Below, piece after piece: positions 50,931 through 57,324 of a DNA stretch of 64,000 nucleotides. The position numbers and the translations under genes were made by a program. The first letter of the stretch is position 1. Each line of letters begins with the position of its first letter. The DNA comes from the human T2T-CHM13v2.0 reference genome, Homo sapiens. The DNA lies in the NCBI RefSeq assembly GCF_009914755.1, contig NC_060939.1. One strand, given 5' to 3'. The notes beneath the pieces are model-generated. The model was not told the DNA's origin, did no database searches, and was given only the letters and a program-made list of their open reading frames with translations.

Positions 50931-52487
50931 TGATATTCTGGCTAGAGAGGACATAAAAGTTACTGGGGCATGAAAGAGTGTGGAGCCCTTAGTGAATAAC
51001 AGGTTGTTCTCTGTGGTTGGAATACGAGCAAGTGAGTTCGTGTGTGCAACTGTGGACACCTGTTCCTGAGTTTGCATTTGGTGGGCTTCATTTCGCATTG
51101 AACTTTCCCGCTCAAACTTTTTCTAACAATTGTTGCCTAGAACAGTAGCTTTGAACCAGTAATGCCAGTCAGGAAATTTAGATTTGAAAACATCAGAGGC
51201 ATTAACAGAATTGCTACTTTGATTTAAACAAAAAGAACCATCTGTTTCTAAGTTTGGAAGACCAAAGATTTTGGATTGAGTGATGGGTAGAAAATTTTAT
51301 TCGACTAAAATTAGTTTAAAAATAATTTATCTACCTGATTGCAGCTTAACTTTCCAAAGCCTTTTCTTCACAGGGAGATGTCACATAGGAGTATAAAAAA
51401 TGCTTTTTAAATTAACTCAAAAGTAAATTTCTTGACATTTTTATTAGTAGAAAATAGGTCCTGGTTTGTGTTTGTGAATGAATACCAAATTGTTTCAGAG
51501 CAGAAGAGTTATACCCTGATAGTATTTGAAACCCAGAAAGACTTGGACTTCTTTAGAGTTCATCTCTTTCGCTCCATCTTTTCTCCTCCTCTTCTATGCT
51601 CCCCTTGTCTCTTGTGGAGCTTGGCTCCTGGCCAGAACATGTATCCCCAAATCCCCTGCAGAGCCTGATTGAAATGCAACTGGCAGATTTCCAAGTGGAG
51701 AGAGCTGATAAAAGAGCAGATTTCTGAGACAATCTGTAGTTTATGATGTGTTCTTTAATGAATTAAGTAGATTATCTTCCCAAACACATACTGGAATACC
51801 AACAAAGCCTTTTGACTGTTACTATTATTCTGGGTTACATTTCACTGATAAAATATTAAGTTCAATTCAGCAAAACTTTGAGTTCCTACTAATATGAGGC
51901 CCTGTGCTGGCAAACCAGCAAAATTAAATGTAAACGTTATTTTCTTTTTCTTCACATAATTCAAGAAACTAGTCATCATAGAGATTATTTATTTATGTGG
52001 TCAGAAAAAGATTATTTGAATGAATCAAAAGAGGTTATATATATATAGATAATATTAATTTGTGAATTTTGAATATCTTGGATGTGAGGGGAATATACAT
52101 AGATTTAAATCCTTACATTTGTGTAAGTAAACATGATATTAGGAAAGAAAGTAGAGTAGAAATGACTTTATGAAGTCAATATGGCTGTATAAATTGACTG
52201 TCGTATTACTCAATGTTTTCTAAATAATCATAATTACCTTTTATTACTATTTCAGTTGTGTCCACCCATAAATGATTTATCAAAAAACATTATAAACATA
52301 GTTATTGGTAGTGATTTGCTTTCAGTAGTTATTTTAAAAGTAAATTTACATTGAAATTCATATATTCTCCTACTTCCTCTGCAATTTTTCACACATTGTG
52401 TATTATGAATACTTTTGAAACGTGTTGGAAATGGAAGAAATCTAGAATTGAATTCTGATATTTATTTTAACATTCATTTCTTTTTAG

Positions 52488-52743
52488 ACACTACATGGAG
52501 TTATGTGGAAATGAGAGAGATTCATGAAACCCCTCCTCCAGGAAAGAATGTCTTTCACAGATGGAGCTTTGCTTCTGGTTTGCACAGGACAGCGACAATG
52601 TGGCAGAGCCATGCCTGCCCTTCCTGCTCTTTCCAGTGATTCACAGAACTTCTGAACAGTGATGCTTGCCTTGGATTTTCAGGTTTTCATCCTGATACTT
52701 GTTTACTTTTCTGGGGCAGAAAAGCTTGCACTAATTGCTCTCC
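52488..52743 (+). other. UNC13C: 5'UTR portion (256 nt) of the giant exon
   Basis: Pyrimidine tract and AG acceptor ttttaacattcatttctttttag|AC ending at 52487; non-repetitive sequence up to the ATG. Confidence 0.8.
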
Positions 52744-55726
52744 ATGGTGGCTAATTTTTTCAAGAGCTTGATTTTACCTTACATTCATAAGCTTTGCAAA
52801 GGAATGTTTACAAAGAAATTGGGAAATACAAACAAAAACAAAGAGTATCGTCAGCAGAAAAAGGATCAAGACTTCCCCACTGCTGGCCAGACCAAATCCC
52901 CCAAATTTTCTTACACTTTTAAAAGCACTGTAAAGAAGATTGCAAAGTGTTCATCCACTCACAACTTATCCACTGAGGAAGACGAGGCCAGTAAAGAGTT
53001 TTCCCTCTCACCAACATTCAGTTACCGAGTAGCTATTGCCAATGGCCTACAAAAGAATGCTAAAGTAACCAACAGTGATAATGAGGATCTGCTTCAAGAG
53101 CTCTCTTCAATCGAGAGTTCCTACTCAGAATCATTAAATGAACTAAGGAGTAGCACAGAAAACCAGGCACAATCAACACACACAATGCCAGTTAGACGCA
53201 ACAGAAAGAGTTCAAGCAGCCTTGCACCCTCTGAGGGCAGCTCTGACGGGGAGCGTACTCTACATGGCTTAAAACTGGGAGCTTTACGAAAACTGAGAAA
53301 ATGGAAAAAGAGTCAAGAATGTGTCTCCTCAGACTCAGAGTTAAGCACCATGAAAAAATCCTGGGGAATAAGAAGTAAGTCTTTGGACAGAACTGTCCGA
53401 AACCCAAAGACAAATGCCCTGGAGCCAGGGTTCAGTTCCTCTGGCTGCATTAGCCAAACACATGATGTCATGGAAATGATCTTTAAGGAACTTCAGGGAA
53501 TAAGTCAGATTGAAACAGAACTTTCTGAACTACGAGGGCACGTCAATGCTCTCAAGCACTCCATCGATGAGATCTCCAGCAGTGTGGAGGTTGTACAAAG
53601 TGAAATTGAGCAGTTGCGCACAGGGTTTGTCCAGTCTCGGAGGGAAACTAGAGACATCCATGATTATATTAAGCACTTAGGTCATATGGGTAGCAAGGCA
53701 AGCCTGAGATTTTTAAATGTGACTGAAGAAAGATTTGAATATGTTGAAAGCGTGGTGTACCAAATTCTAATAGATAAAATGGGTTTTTCAGATGCACCAA
53801 ATGCTATTAAAATTGAATTTGCTCAGAGGATAGGACACCAGAGAGACTGCCCAAATGCAAAGCCTCGACCCATACTTGTGTACTTTGAAACCCCTCAACA
53901 AAGGGATTCTGTCTTAAAAAAGTCATATAAACTCAAAGGAACAGGCATTGGAATCTCAACAGATATTCTAACTCATGACATCAGAGAAAGAAAAGAGAAA
54001 GGGATACCATCCTCCCAGACATATGAGAGCATGGCTATAAAGTTGTCTACTCCAGAGCCAAAAATCAAGAAGAACAATTGGCAGTCACCTGATGACAGTG
54101 ATGAAGATCTTGAATCTGACCTCAATAGAAACAGTTACGCTGTGCTTTCCAAGTCAGAGCTTCTAACAAAGGGAAGTACTTCCAAGCCAAGCTCAAAATC
54201 ACACAGTGCTAGATCCAAGAATAAAACTGCTAATAGCAGCAGAATTTCAAATAAATCAGATTATGATAAAATCTCCTCACAGTTGCCAGAATCAGATATC
54301 TTGGAAAAGCAAACCACAACCCATTATGCAGATGCAACACCTCTCTGGCACTCACAGAGTGATTTTTTCACTGCTAAACTTAGTCGTTCTGAATCAGATT
54401 TTTCCAAATTGTGTCAGTCTTACTCAGAAGATTTTTCAGAAAATCAGTTTTTCACTAGAACTAATGGAAGCTCTCTCCTGTCATCTTCGGACCGGGAGCT
54501 ATGGCAGAGGAAACAGGAAGGAACAGCGACCCTGTATGACAGTCCCAAGGACCAGCATTTGAATGGAAGTGTTCAGGGTATCCAAGGGCAGACTGAAACT
54601 GAAAACACAGAAACTGTGGATAGTGGAATGAGTAATGGCATGGTGTGTGCATCTGGAGACCGGAGTCATTACAGTGATTCTCAGCTCTCTTTACATGAGG
54701 ATCTTTCTCCATGGAAGGAATGGAATCAAGGAGCTGATTTAGGCTTGGATTCATCCACCCAGGAAGGTTTTGATTATGAAACAAACAGTCTTTTTGACCA
54801 ACAGCTTGATGTTTACAATAAAGACCTAGAATACTTGGGAAAGTGCCACAGTGATCTTCAAGATGACTCAGAGAGCTACGACTTAACTCAAGATGACAAT
54901 TCTTCTCCATGCCCTGGCTTGGATAATGAACCACAAGGCCAGTGGGTTGGCCAATATGATTCTTATCAGGGAGCTAATTCTAATGAGCTATACCAAAATC
55001 AAAACCAGTTGTCCATGATGTATCGAAGTCAAAGTGAATTGCAAAGTGATGATTCAGAGGATGCCCCACCCAAATCATGGCATAGTCGATTAAGCATTGA
55101 CCTTTCTGATAAGACTTTCAGCTTCCCAAAATTTGGATCTACACTGCAGAGGGCTAAATCAGCCTTGGAAGTAGTATGGAACAAAAGCACACAGAGTCTG
55201 AGTGGGTATGAGGACAGTGGCTCTTCATTAATGGGGAGATTTCGGACATTATCTCAATCAACTGCAAATGAGTCAAGTACCACACTTGACTCTGATGTCT
55301 ACACGGAGCCCTATTACTATAAAGCAGAGGATGAGGAAGATTATACTGAACCAGTGGCTGACAATGAAACAGATTATGTTGAAGTCATGGAACAAGTCCT
55401 TGCTAAACTAGAAAACAGGACTAGTATTACTGAAACAGATGAACAAATGCAAGCATATGATCACCTTTCATATGAAACACCTTATGAAACCCCACAAGAT
55501 GAGGGTTATGATGGTCCAGCAGATGATATGGTTAGTGAAGAGGGGTTAGAACCCTTAAATGAAACATCAGCTGAGATGGAAATAAGAGAAGATGAAAACC
55601 AAAACATTCCTGAACAGCCAGTGGAGATCACAAAGCCAAAGAGAATTCGTCCTTCTTTCAAAGAAGCAGCTTTAAGGGCCTATAAAAAGCAAATGGCAGA
55701 GTTGGAAGAGAAGATCTTGGCTGGAG
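52744..55726 (+). CDS. UNC13C: First coding exon of protein unc-13 homolog C (Munc13-3): N-terminal 994 codons + 1 nt; C1/C2/MUN exons lie outside the window
   Basis: 3-kb stop-free frame. The first ATG (52744, tccATGG) follows an in-frame TAA at 52732. The translation [27 protein letters not shown]...[24 protein letters not shown] is recognised as the Munc13-3 N-terminus. Phase-1 donor GGAG|gtattc at 55726/55727. Confidence 0.95.
53470..53994 (+). other. UNC13C: LINE ORF1p-like module (coiled coil + RRM + start of CTD) within UNC13C, aa ~243-417
   Basis: Heptad repeat followed by SLRFLNVTE...IEFAQRIG...KPRPILVYF...RDSVLKK...[13 protein letters not shown]...RERK, collinear with L1ORF1p NLRLIGVPE...IQEIQR...TPRHIIVRF...KEKMLR...KGKPIRLTADL...QARR (human ORF1p recalled from memory). 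Confidence 0.75.
55654..55713 (+). other. UNC13C: Calmodulin-binding amphipathic helix [20 protein letters not shown]
   Basis: Basic amphipathic helix with a Phe anchor. It matches the Ca2+/CaM-binding segment I recall being described for Munc13-3. Confidence 0.6.
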
Positions 55727-57324
55727 GTATTCATGTTTAAATGCTACATTGTGAGCTAATTGTGTTTTAACATTGGGTAGCACTTCTTTAGAGCATGCTC
55801 TGTGTTTACTTGGGTGAAAGAGTTTACTTGCAATGACTTTCCATGCTTTACTCTGAGGAGCATTTTGTTTTACTCAGGCAGCTCTCCTAAGAAGTTGGGC
55901 TTGATGATTTAAAATCAAAGAATATGTTAAATGGGTCATATTGGAATGAGCCCAAACTTAACCCAACACATTGTGGATCAGATTTCTCTGCTAAATTTAG
56001 GCACAAACCCCATTTAACATCAACTAACTTTGTGGCATCAGTTGTCAAACAAAAGTTGAGTGAAACCAAAGGTTAAGCCAACAGCCTGGCATCTATTTCT
56101 TGGTTCCATTAAGTTTACAGGGATGGAGAGAAAGGTGTAATCTTAAAAAAAAATGTGAAAAGATGGACTCTGAGACTTAACCACTCATTTTCCTATCCAT
56201 TCAACAATTTAGGGGTTGCCCATAGGAAAAGTTGTGTGTGCACAGGACAGTCCCATGGAAGACCATGGACTCCCTTACAACCTACTGGCACAGTCAGGGA
56301 GAGCAATAGAGCCAAGGCCCTAGGTCATGTCTGAGTGGTCACAAGCTATTCTTTGAGAAGAGATCAGTAAGGGGATAGAGTTGAGTGGTTACCTTCTTAA
56401 GAATAAAGTCCCTTCTCCACCATGGAAATGAGAAGAGTACCTTAACTAACTATTTTAATTGCTTTCTTGTGGGAACAACTTTGGATTATATACTTTTGGA
56501 AAGTGATAGTTATATGTAAATGTAAGAGTTTGTTTACTTTCTATTTCTCAACCCAACTTCCTCCGCACTTATTCCACTCCCTTACCATTTATTTTAGTTG
56601 CATGCTAATTACTTACATTTTTGGAATAGTCTGTTACTATCTAAATTTAAATGAATTGCATATTATTATTATGTTCCCTGATCATGGGATTGTCATCATT
56701 AACTAAGCTATTACTCTACATAATACTTCATAAAGGTGTATATGACCAAGTGTTACTTGCTATTATCAAATAACATAATAATATCTGCAGCCAGTAGCTG
56801 GTTATATCTTCTCTGTCTTGACCAAAGCTGTGATCAAACTCCCCTAAATGAGCCATTTTGTGGTTGATGTGAGTAGATTATTGAATAATCAGAAATCTTT
56901 ACTGCTAAACTATTTGAATTTCTAAGACAACTGAAATAACTAGGGTTTGCCACTCTAAAAATCTATCTTTATAAAACAACACAGTTTATGTAATTTATTT
57001 AGGAATGATATAAGTCAAAGGGATCTTGAATGCACTGGCTGTTGCAACATTTTGTGTTTTTGTTTTTTTTGCAGGGATGGGTAGTTCTCAACTATATTTA
57101 AAACTGATTTAAGAGTGAAAAGTAGTCAAATGTTATGCAAATGTAATGCATATGGTAATAATATCTATCTTATATTGGAGTGATTTTTGAGAGTCGGATA
57201 TCCTTGTTACTGAAATTCATTTGCTATTTCTTGGGATACAGGCCAGCAGTTTGACAATGTATTTTATTTGCTGTTGATTCAGAGTTTACTCAAAGGCAAA
57301 TGAAGACTAAGAAGTGCATGAGCA

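What the first reader, a model, noticed from the sequence alone, without database searches (positions are those of the whole stretch)
53470..53679. Long coiled coil directly upstream of the RRM-like domain reproduces ORF1p architecture and suggests trimerisation
Seen in sequence: a near-continuous 3-4 heptad pattern L260,L263,V267,L270,I274,I277,V281,V284,I288,L291,F295,S298,T302,I305,I309,L312 (about 7 heptads) ends about 8 residues before the RRM-like beta1 strand. Established: L1ORF1p is a coiled-coil trimer with the RRM immediately after the coil, and beta-branched Ile/Val at both a and d positions favours trimers. Inference: the coil and RRM were captured together and could oligomerise Munc13-3, which lacks the C2A dimerisation domain of Munc13-1/ubMunc13-2. 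This would offer an alternative way to cluster priming factors or form condensates at active zones.
Basis: partly seen in the sequence, partly recalled or inferred. Interest (0 to 1): 0.75.

Follow-up and report, generated by a model that had tools for sequence, protein, structure and literature searches.

The report
Retrotransposon-derived coiled coil in Munc13-3
The stretch encodes a real, extremely conserved coiled coil in the synaptic priming protein Munc13-3 that descends from the LINE-1 ORF1 protein, but both the coil and its ORF1 origin are already in print and whether it forms trimers is still untested.

Summary
All 16 listed residues are present. In aa 260-312, 14 of 16 a/d slots are hydrophobic, which 0 of 20,000 shuffles reach.

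A profile of 12 orthologues hits solved LINE-1 ORF1p (2ykp) at E 4e-6. One ungapped offset of +163 puts all 22 ORF1p core layers, the stammer layer and RRM strand beta1 in register.

Much of this is already in print. Kawabe 2017 described the coil as the motif shared with bMunc13-2, where it binds ELKS1. Kitao 2025 noted the ORF1-like exon and labelled CC and RRM on an AlphaFold model.

New here:
- The UNC13B (bMunc13-2) exon carries the whole coil+RRM module.
- The UNC13B and UNC13C modules fall on one side of a single branch.
- The coil is the most conserved 60 residues of the exon, and its recurrent variation lies only at f positions.

- For a trimer: descent from trimer-forming heptads and a family-consensus core.
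- Against: both RhxxhE motifs and the ion layers are gone, and the paralogue's coil is heteromeric.

My leaning is a partner-docking, active-zone-anchoring coil (0.45) over an obligate homotrimer (0.3).

The parts
52744..55726 (+). First coding exon of UNC13C (994 codons), which holds the whole module
   Evidence: Translation has no stop. The stop-to-stop frame is 52735-55740. The hub annotation places the coding part here.
53425..54039 (+). Conserved ORF1p-like module, aa 228-432 (coil, RRM-like domain and basic linker)
   Evidence: Alignment A1 of 12 orthologues has mean column identity 86%. The A1 profile hits L1 ORF1p 2ykp at E 4.1e-6.
53464..53691 (+). Coiled coil, aa 241-316, equivalent to ORF1p heptads X to I
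   Evidence: 0 of 20,000 shuffles reach the observed heptad score. All 22 ORF1p core layers map at offset +163, and 19 of the 22 are hydrophobic in UNC13C. Identity to 11 orthologues is 0.95-0.99 over aa 241-300.
53470..53679 (+).
   Evidence: 16 of 16 listed residues verified.
53503..53511 (+). Stammer-like three-residue insertion, S254-Q255-I256, at the place of ORF1p M91-E92-L93
   Evidence: Hydrophobic spacing is 4,3,3,4 at 246-250-253-256-260. In relatives, position 249 is hydrophobic in 0.22 and position 250 in 0.84 (n about 31). Support is weak upstream, where only 4 relatives reach aa 239.
53488..53616 (+). aa 249-291, equivalent of the ELKS1-binding coiled-coil motif of bMunc13-2 (residues 145-187)
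   Evidence: 23 of 43 residues are identical to P0363 residues 145-187, matching the 52% stated by Kawabe 2017.
53626..53688 (+). Heptads III-I (aa 295-315) with polar core layers S298 and T302. These are kept in UNC13C but replaced by a variable Gly/Ser/Pro-rich linker in UNC13B
53701..53979 (+). RRM-like domain, aa 320-412 (fold not modelled here)
   Evidence: It aligns to the ORF1p RRM 157-252. R159 maps to the invariant R322.
53980..53997 (+). Basic linker after the RRM (aa 413-418), where homology to ORF1p ends. There is no CTD
   Evidence: In hmmalign, R261 maps to R416 and R262 to K417. The last aligned ORF1p residue is 263, at aa 418.

Best explanation
The interval encodes the coiled coil of an anciently domesticated LINE-1-type ORF1 protein. 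The domesticated piece is coil plus RRM, with the C-terminal domain lost. It was captured into an ancestral unc-13 gene before UNC13B and UNC13C separated. It is the same element that Kawabe et al. called the conserved coiled-coil motif of bMunc13-2 and Munc13-3.

Most likely mechanism (inferred, not shown): in Munc13-3 the helix packs its a/d/g face against the coiled coil of a still unidentified active-zone scaffold protein. That would anchor the priming factor at release sites, as the paralogous helix of bMunc13-2 does with ELKS1. The rigid ORF1p-type junction to the RRM-like domain is retained. Self-association may coexist with partner binding, but it is not the main selected function.
For: Shown:
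- The heptad pattern is real and unique within the exon.
- Homology to solved L1 ORF1p is significant (E 4.1e-6; single sequence 0.015).
- Register, stammer place and coil-to-RRM spacing are identical at offset +163.
- The same a/d periodicity appears in 94 ORF1p-like relatives, and 62 of the 94 have the same 31-residue spacing.
- The UNC13B exon carries the same module (BLASTP E 3e-21 over 166 aa; hhalign probability 99.9%, E 4e-31). Its own profile also has L1 ORF1p as top PDB hit (E 0.0054).
- The Munc13 modules lie on one side of a branch against 70 relatives (UFBoot 99, SH-aLRT 94).
- aa 249-291 equals the ELKS1-binding motif, with 23 of 43 residues identical.

From print: the bMunc13-2 coil binds ELKS1 771-976 at an apparent 1:1.69 stoichiometry and recruits bMunc13-2 to active zones (PMC5379939, passages).

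Inference:
- Near-invariance of surface positions across 122 sequences points to a specific partner, not mere oligomerisation. Only 8 of 63 positions vary, and the four recurrent ones are all at f (P 0.011). ORF1p coils, by contrast, are evolutionarily labile (PMC9410894).
- In UNC13B the conserved stripe is a/d/g while b, c, e and f vary. That fits one-sided docking.
Against: - Munc13-3(1-304) did not bind ELKS1 in yeast two-hybrid, and no partner is known. None was evident among the 15 papers listed of 165 found by my search, judged from titles and abstracts only.
- In UNC13C the b, c and e positions are also invariant, which one-sided docking does not explain.
- The core residues are the commonest or second commonest of the ORF1p-like family at most layers (read). 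The homologous seven heptads of human ORF1p are sufficient for trimer formation (PMC5940361). Homotrimerisation is therefore a live alternative.
- No repulsive g-e' pairs occur, and E259-R264 and E287-R292 could bridge parallel identical helices (read).
- No structure prediction could be run.
Confidence: 0.45

Rival explanations
1. One reading: the coil is a parallel homotrimeriser inherited from ORF1p. It clusters three Munc13-3 molecules and stands in for the missing C2A domain.
For: - Descent in register from ORF1p heptads I-X, of which the C-terminal seven suffice for trimers (PMC5940361).
- The a/d residues are mostly I/L/V and match the family consensus.
- Trimer-type patterns named by PrOCoil are present. 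These are Ile in the core with Glu at g (E287-I288) and core residues with Ser at f (S279, S286) (PMC3098589 section 21; read).
- Possible g-e' bridges exist and there are no repulsive pairs.
- Recurrent variation only at f, the position furthest from any neighbouring helix.
- The Munc13-1 core forms upright trimers on membranes (PMC8851502 and PMC12912961, abstracts only).
Against: - Both RhxxhE trimerisation motifs are lost, replaced by SIDEIS and SVEVVQ.
- The N142 d-layer and the G132/R135 ion site are lost, replaced by I305 and F295/S298.
- Invariant Gly sits at 252, 265 and 294.
- The paralogous coil works as a heteromer with ELKS1.
- No oligomer prediction was possible.
Confidence: 0.3
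2. Two-state coil: a homo-oligomer (a storage or clustered form) exchanges for a heteromeric complex with a scaffold protein. This would be analogous to the switch of Munc13-1 C2A from homodimer to RIM heterodimer. Two overlapping interfaces would explain why every face except f is frozen.
For: - Invariance of a, b, c, d, e and g, with variation only at f.
- A stammer at the ORF1p position. In ORF1p the stammer makes the N-terminal heptads metastable (PMC5940361; PMC10202459).
- The precedent of the C2A switch (PMC5436228, abstract in listing).
Against: This is entirely inferential. No partner is known and no self-association data exist. The stammer call rests on few residues, and neighbouring offsets 156 and 170 still place 18 of 22 layers on hydrophobic residues.
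Confidence: 0.15
3. The coil has no intermolecular role. It is a rigid spacer or an intramolecular regulatory helix, or its conservation reflects constraint on the nucleic acid (splicing or RNA structure) and not on the protein.
For: Extreme conservation could in principle include synonymous constraint, which I could not measure because no orthologue DNA was available.
Against: - An exposed stripe of I/L/V over ten heptads would not stay solvated.
- Substitutions that do occur are conservative and confined to one heptad position, a protein-level pattern.
- The paralogue's coil binds a protein.
- No Rfam match.
Confidence: 0.07

Closest known systems
Human LINE-1 ORF1p coiled coil, heptads I-X (PDB 2ykp/2yko; coil structure described in PMC5940361)
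   Same: - Same heptad register, same place of the three-residue stammer and same distance to RRM strand beta1 at one ungapped offset of +163.
- An RRM follows directly.
- R159, R261 and R262 are kept as R322, R416 and K417.
- Profile E-value 4.1e-6.
   Different: - No RhxxhE motifs and no G132/R135/N142 ion layers.
- No CTD.
- RRM net charge +1 against +8.
- The coil is invariant from fish to human, whereas the ORF1p coil is labile.
- It is an exon of a host gene, not the first ORF of a LINE.
- No Pfam Transposase_22 hit.
ELKS1-binding coiled-coil motif of bMunc13-2 (UNC13B; Kawabe et al. 2017, PMC5379939)
   Same: - Paralogous: 23 of 43 residues identical over the mapped motif.
- Also followed by an RRM-like domain.
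- Same stammer pattern.
- g positions are the most often shared between the two paralogues.
   Different: - In UNC13B, heptads III-I are replaced by a variable Gly/Ser/Pro-rich linker.
- UNC13B evolves much faster (62-65% identity between human and birds, against 80-85% for UNC13C).
- bMunc13-2 binds ELKS1, whereas Munc13-3(1-304) did not.
ORF1p-derived exons of host genes: Lyosin (MYL4), L1-RFX5, NUP42-L1, USP4-L1 (Kitao et al. 2025, PMC12129022)
   Same: A coil plus RRM of L1 ORF1p is fused to a host protein through a coding exon. Lyosin also lacks the CTD. UNC13C was picked up by the same screen.
   Different: Those are alternative, lineage-restricted exons. The UNC13C exon is canonical and was found here from mammals to teleosts. 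It is far more conserved, and it has a paralogue in UNC13B.
L1TD1
   Same: A domesticated L1 ORF1 gene (Kitao introduction).
   Different: It is a stand-alone eutherian gene, repeatedly lost, and not fused to a host protein. It was not compared by sequence here.
C2A domain of Munc13-1/ubMunc13-2
   Same: Functional analogy only: an N-terminal module that self-associates and docks the priming factor to an active-zone scaffold (RIM).
   Different: Unrelated fold and origin.

Membership tests
L1-type ORF1p (coiled coil + RRM + CTD; Pfam Transposase_22) | Significant sequence similarity to ORF1p of known structure | tested here: met
   Profile A1 against PDB gives 2ykp at E 4.1e-6, mouse ORF1 2ldy at 6.5e-4 and RRM 2w7a at 9e-4. 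The single sequence gives E 0.015.
L1-type ORF1p (coiled coil + RRM + CTD; Pfam Transposase_22) | Match to Pfam PF02994 above the gathering score | tested here: not met
   There is no PF02994 hit at E up to 1 for the 994-aa exon. PF02994 is not among the 25 families listed for the human 205-aa module. Two relatives found by the A1 profile (P0148, P0159) do pass it, at 23.7 and 23.0 bits against a cut-off of 22.4.
L1-type ORF1p (coiled coil + RRM + CTD; Pfam Transposase_22) | Coiled coil running right up to the RRM, in a fixed register | tested here: met
   Offset +163 fits the coil layers and the L158-R159 / L321-R322 pair alike. 62 of 94 relatives have the same 31-residue spacing.
L1-type ORF1p (coiled coil + RRM + CTD; Pfam Transposase_22) | RRM fold after the coil | not testable with these tools
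Only a sequence alignment to the ORF1p RRM is available, plus the legend of Kitao's preprint Fig. S6B, which labels an RRM on AF-Q8K0T7.
L1-type ORF1p (coiled coil + RRM + CTD; Pfam Transposase_22) | C-terminal domain (CTD) | tested here: not met
   The alignment ends at ORF1p residue 263, which is UNC13C 418.
L1-type ORF1p (coiled coil + RRM + CTD; Pfam Transposase_22) | First ORF of a LINE, upstream of ORF2 | tested here: not met
   It lies inside a 994-codon exon of UNC13C (hub annotation). It is therefore a derivative of the family, not a member element.
Trimeric ORF1p-type coiled coil | [quoted passage not shown] | tested here: not met
   The aligned positions read SIDEIS and SVEVVQ.
Trimeric ORF1p-type coiled coil | Polar ion-binding core layers (N142 at d; G132/R135) | tested here: not met
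   The equivalents are I305 and F295/S298. UNC13C instead has polar layers at S298 (d) and T302 (a).
Trimeric ORF1p-type coiled coil | Beta-branched residues at both a and d | tested here: inconclusive
PrOCoil finds only Ile at a significant for trimers.
Trimeric ORF1p-type coiled coil | Forms a homotrimer | not testable with these tools
Conserved coiled-coil motif of bMunc13-2/Munc13-3 (Kawabe 2017) | About 52% identity to bMunc13-2 residues 145-187, conserved from fish to human | tested here: met
   23 of 43 residues are identical. Teleost orthologues are 75-77% identical over aa 238-431.
Conserved coiled-coil motif of bMunc13-2/Munc13-3 (Kawabe 2017) | Binds the C-terminal coiled coil of ELKS1 | not testable with these tools
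   Reported negative for Munc13-3(1-304) (PMC5379939). If rat numbering follows other mammals, that bait probably lacks I305, I309, L312 and the RRM.

The most novel reading that the evidence does not exclude
A LINE-1 ORF1p coil (stammer included) plus RRM was captured once, before UNC13B and UNC13C split, and became the active-zone anchoring module of both bMunc13-2 and Munc13-3. On this reading the ELKS1-binding motif is itself a retrotransposon trimerisation helix. In Munc13-3 the helix still self-assembles into a parallel trimer that pre-organises three priming cores, and it exchanges with, or also binds, an unknown scaffold partner.
Probability: 0.25. Interest if true: 0.8.

Novelty: new member of a known kind. 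Interest (0 to 1): 0.5.

Why it matters
How Munc13-3 reaches and is organised at release sites is not known. It lacks the RIM-binding C2A domain and did not bind ELKS1.

Recognising its one ultra-conserved N-terminal element as an ORF1p coil with a rigid junction to an RRM-like domain gives concrete constructs and mutants to test:
- the full module, instead of residues 1-304;
- core-layer mutants;
- deletion of the stammer.

It also shows that the ELKS1-binding motif of bMunc13-2 has the same retrotransposon origin. That would make this one of the oldest and most strongly constrained LINE-1 protein domestications seen so far. A stable trimer would fit the upright trimers reported for the Munc13-1 core (abstracts only).

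The basic facts (a coil, and ORF1 likeness) are already published. The value added here is the link between them and a set of testable details, not a discovery of a new kind.

Tried and rejected
Tools that could not be used:
- Complex prediction with 3 copies of A1 was not available.
- The genome search with an alignment was busy and then not accepted.

Searches with weak or negative results:
- The RRM as a single protein against the human genome gave only weak hits (E 0.2-0.8) and did not recover UNC13B.
- Pfam gave only sub-threshold coiled-coil families.
- The human bMunc13-2 module alone did not hit ORF1p in PDB. Only its profile did.
- No PDB chain of any Munc13 matched the coil.
- PMC2630067 (Khazina and Weichenrieder 2009) is not held. 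The Harbury 1993 rule is recalled, not fetched, and PMC6175849 did not state it.

Errors corrected along the way:
- In one search my script picked an ORF2 fragment by mistake. This was corrected.
- Script error, and a search-term syntax error.

Readings rejected:
- A continuous heptad from 246 puts E249 at d. The stammer register fits better.
- A chance pattern is excluded.
- An antisense gene or a structured RNA is excluded.

Caveat on counts: the 2011 library hits include generic coiled-coil proteins. One example is P0151, of the LRRFIP family, matched in 10 stretches to the coil only.
Full report
**1. What is at the coordinates.**
Window 52744-55726 (+) translates without a stop into the 994 residues of the first coding exon of UNC13C. 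The finding's interval, 53470-53679, is residues 243-312.

In aa 260-312, 14 of the 16 a/d slots are hydrophobic, while the 53 residues hold only 17 hydrophobic residues. None of 20,000 shuffles reaches that. In a 49-residue sliding scan of the whole exon, only windows starting at aa 236-267 score 12 or more.

The other strand has no open frame longer than 79 aa, and no Rfam family matches 52000-56500. Pfam finds only sub-threshold coiled-coil families and no Transposase_22.

**2. Conservation.**
A search with aa 238-431 returned 166 proteins at E 0.001 or better. The 120 listed are unc-13 C-type proteins or unnamed contig proteins, ranging from mammals (95-99% identity) through birds (about 84%) to teleosts (about 75%).

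I chose 11 of these for taxonomic spread and a complete N-terminus. Against them, aa 241-270 and 271-300 are 0.99 and 0.95 identical. These are the highest values anywhere in the 994-residue exon, whose other 30-residue bins range from 0.21 to 0.82.

I then took 122 sequences: human plus the 121 of 123 hits that cover the coil. They reduce to 27 distinct coil strings. Only 8 of the 63 positions in 246-308 vary at all. The four that vary in more than two of the 27 distinct strings (258, 272, 286, 293) are all heptad position f (hypergeometric P 0.011). The positions a, b, c, d, e and g are essentially frozen.

**3. Homology to LINE-1 ORF1p.**
- The human fragment alone hits solved L1 ORF1p (2ykp/2yko) at E 0.015.
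- A profile of 12 orthologues (A1) hits 2ykp at E 4.1e-6, mouse ORF1 (2ldy) at 6.5e-4 and the isolated RRM (2w7a) at 9e-4. The match is colinear from the coil into the RRM.
- Against 1.84 billion representatives, the profile finds 2011 proteins at E 0.001 or better and 67 at 1e-10 or better.
- I scanned 42 of these with Pfam. Five are Munc13 proteins with C1 together with MUN and/or C2 domains. Most of the rest are short proteins with no Pfam match above its curated cut-off. Two pass Transposase_22, three carry a NADAR domain, and one (P0151) is a generic coiled-coil protein. The raw count therefore includes coil-only matches.

**4. Register.**
I read a genomic L1 ORF1 copy (L014, 338 residues from its Met). 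It carries all 15 residues that the papers quote by number: K62, F69, T81, M91, E92, L93, C111, D112, S119, G132, R135, N142, N157, L158 and R159.

With the single ungapped offset +163, all 22 core layers defined by Khazina and Weichenrieder (passages of PMC5940361) fall on M243, I246, L250, I253, I256, L260, L263, V267, L270, I274, I277, V281, V284, I288, L291, F295, S298, T302, I305, I309, L312 and G316. The layers run from Xa to the a-layer before the RRM and include the stammer layer L93. In UNC13C, 19 of these 22 are hydrophobic.
- Offsets 156 and 170 give 18, and all other offsets give 14 or fewer.
- The same offset aligns L158-R159 with L321-R322.

The 4,3,3,4 spacing at 246-250-253-256-260 puts a three-residue stammer at 254-256, where ORF1p has M91-L93. 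This detail is weaker. It rests on E249/L250 in UNC13C, on positions 249 (0.22 hydrophobic) against 250 (0.84) in about 31 relatives, and on only 4 relatives that reach aa 239. Local alignments to a UNC13C profile may also favour it.

Among 94 non-Munc13 relatives covering heptads VII-I, the a/d columns are 0.68-0.99 hydrophobic. The exception is 302 (0.35), where Asn is commonest. The other coil columns, up to aa 315, are 0.04-0.41. In 62 of the 94, the stretch from the L291 column to the L321 column is 31 residues long, as in UNC13C.

**5. What differs from ORF1p.**
- The two RhxxhE trimerisation motifs of heptads V and VI align to SIDEIS and SVEVVQ.
- G132, R135 and N142, which hold chloride ions in the ORF1p trimer, align to F295, S298 and I305.
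- Homology ends at ORF1p 263, which is aa 418, so the CTD is absent.
- R159, R261 and R262 are kept as R322, R416 and K417.
- R206, R210, R211 and R220 are Q366, P370, N371 and Y380. That these four bind RNA is recalled, not checked.
- The RRM net charge is +1 against +8.

**6. The paralogue.**
Searching the human genome with aa 238-319 gave one other significant place. It lies on chromosome 9 inside a 799-codon open frame (E 1e-8, 50% identity). Orthologues of that module are named unc-13 homolog B.

The similarity is not limited to the coil:
- BLASTP of the two modules gives E 3e-21 over 166 residues, running through the RRM-like part.
- Profile against profile gives probability 99.9% and E 4e-31 over 162 columns.
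- The UNC13B profile by itself again has L1 ORF1p as its best PDB hit, at E 0.0054.

In a careful tree, the rows were 6 of the 12 UNC13C rows, 7 of the 11 UNC13B rows and 70 relatives. The Munc13 modules form one side of a branch (UFBoot 99, SH-aLRT 94, and 100% of 200 bootstrap trees). Caveats: the bootstrap had not fully settled, the root is at the midpoint, and the relatives were picked by likeness to UNC13C (the quick tree gave SH-aLRT 94).

In UNC13B, the equivalents of heptads III-I are a variable Gly/Ser/Pro-rich linker.

**7. What is in print.**
- Kawabe et al. [quoted passage not shown] In bMunc13-2, residues 145-187 bind ELKS1 771-976 with an apparent 1:1.69 stoichiometry. Munc13-3(1-304) does not bind ELKS1.
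- On a mouse-genus UNC13B sequence, residues 145-187 map to UNC13C E249-L291 with 23 of 43 residues identical. This confirms that it is the same element.
- In 8 of the 10 mammalian orthologues checked, the coil starts at residue 241. The 1-304 bait therefore probably lacked the last one and a half heptads and the RRM.
- Kitao et al. 2025 (PMC12129022, Methods passage; supplementary table) found UNC13C in a screen for ORF1p-like proteins. They wrote that it has a canonical exon homologous to L1 ORF1, with 'no further analysis'.
- The legend of their preprint Fig. S6B labels CC and RRM on the AlphaFold model of mouse UNC13C.
- Full-text searches found no paper holding Munc13-3 with ORF1p or UNC13B with ORF1p.

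The architecture is therefore published. The trimer idea, the UNC13B module and the link to the ELKS1 motif were not found in print.

**8. Mechanism.**
No oligomer or fold prediction could be run, so what follows is inference.

For a homotrimer:
- Descent from heptads that suffice for ORF1p trimers.
- A core equal to the family consensus.
- Possible E259-R264 and E287-R292 bridges, with no repulsive pairs.
- Some PrOCoil trimer patterns.

Against a homotrimer:
- The lost trimer motifs and ion layers.
- Leu at half of the d positions.
- Three invariant glycines.
- The experimentally heteromeric paralogue.

In UNC13B the conserved stripe is a/d/g, while b, c, e and f vary, as expected for one-sided docking. 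In UNC13C every face but f is frozen, which suggests more than one interface.

I rank the readings as follows:
- Partner docking for active-zone anchoring: 0.45.
- Obligate homotrimer: 0.3.
- Two-state coil: 0.15.
- No intermolecular role: 0.07.

The condensate idea has little support. The CTD and most basic residues are gone, and the domesticated Lyosin formed no foci. A stammer, which ORF1p condensation requires, may however be retained.

**9. Verdict.**
The feature is a member of a known kind, already noted in print, with new connections added here.

Noticed in passing
L002:1498-2007 (human chromosome 9, UNC13B bMunc13-2-specific exon): The bMunc13-2 N-terminal exon carries not only the published coiled-coil motif but a whole ORF1p-like coil+RRM module. 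Kawabe 2017 describes the two N-termini as unrelated apart from the short coil.
   Followed up: yes
P0138, P0148, P0165 (relatives): Three of the 42 relatives scanned join the ORF1p-like coil+RRM to a C-terminal NADAR domain (Pfam E 1e-35 to 1e-36). This is an unexpected fusion for an ORF1-type protein.
   Followed up: no
window 53194-53463 (aa 151-240) and 54364-54453 (aa 541-570): These are further conserved islands in the otherwise poorly conserved exon, at 0.72-0.82 and 0.75 identity to 11 orthologues. They have no Pfam match.
   Followed up: no
window 54010-54030 (aa 423-429): An invariant SSQTYES motif lies just after the point where homology to ORF1p ends. It is identical in all 12 aligned orthologues.
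   Followed up: no
window 53464-53655 (aa 241-304): The published negative ELKS1 test used Munc13-3 residues 1-304. If rat numbering matches other mammals, that bait ends inside heptad II and omits I305, I309, L312 and the RRM-like domain.
   Followed up: partly
P0151: This 1069-residue LRRFIP-family protein matches the A1 profile in 10 stretches through the coil only. The count of 2011 library hits is therefore inflated by generic coiled coils.
   Followed up: partly
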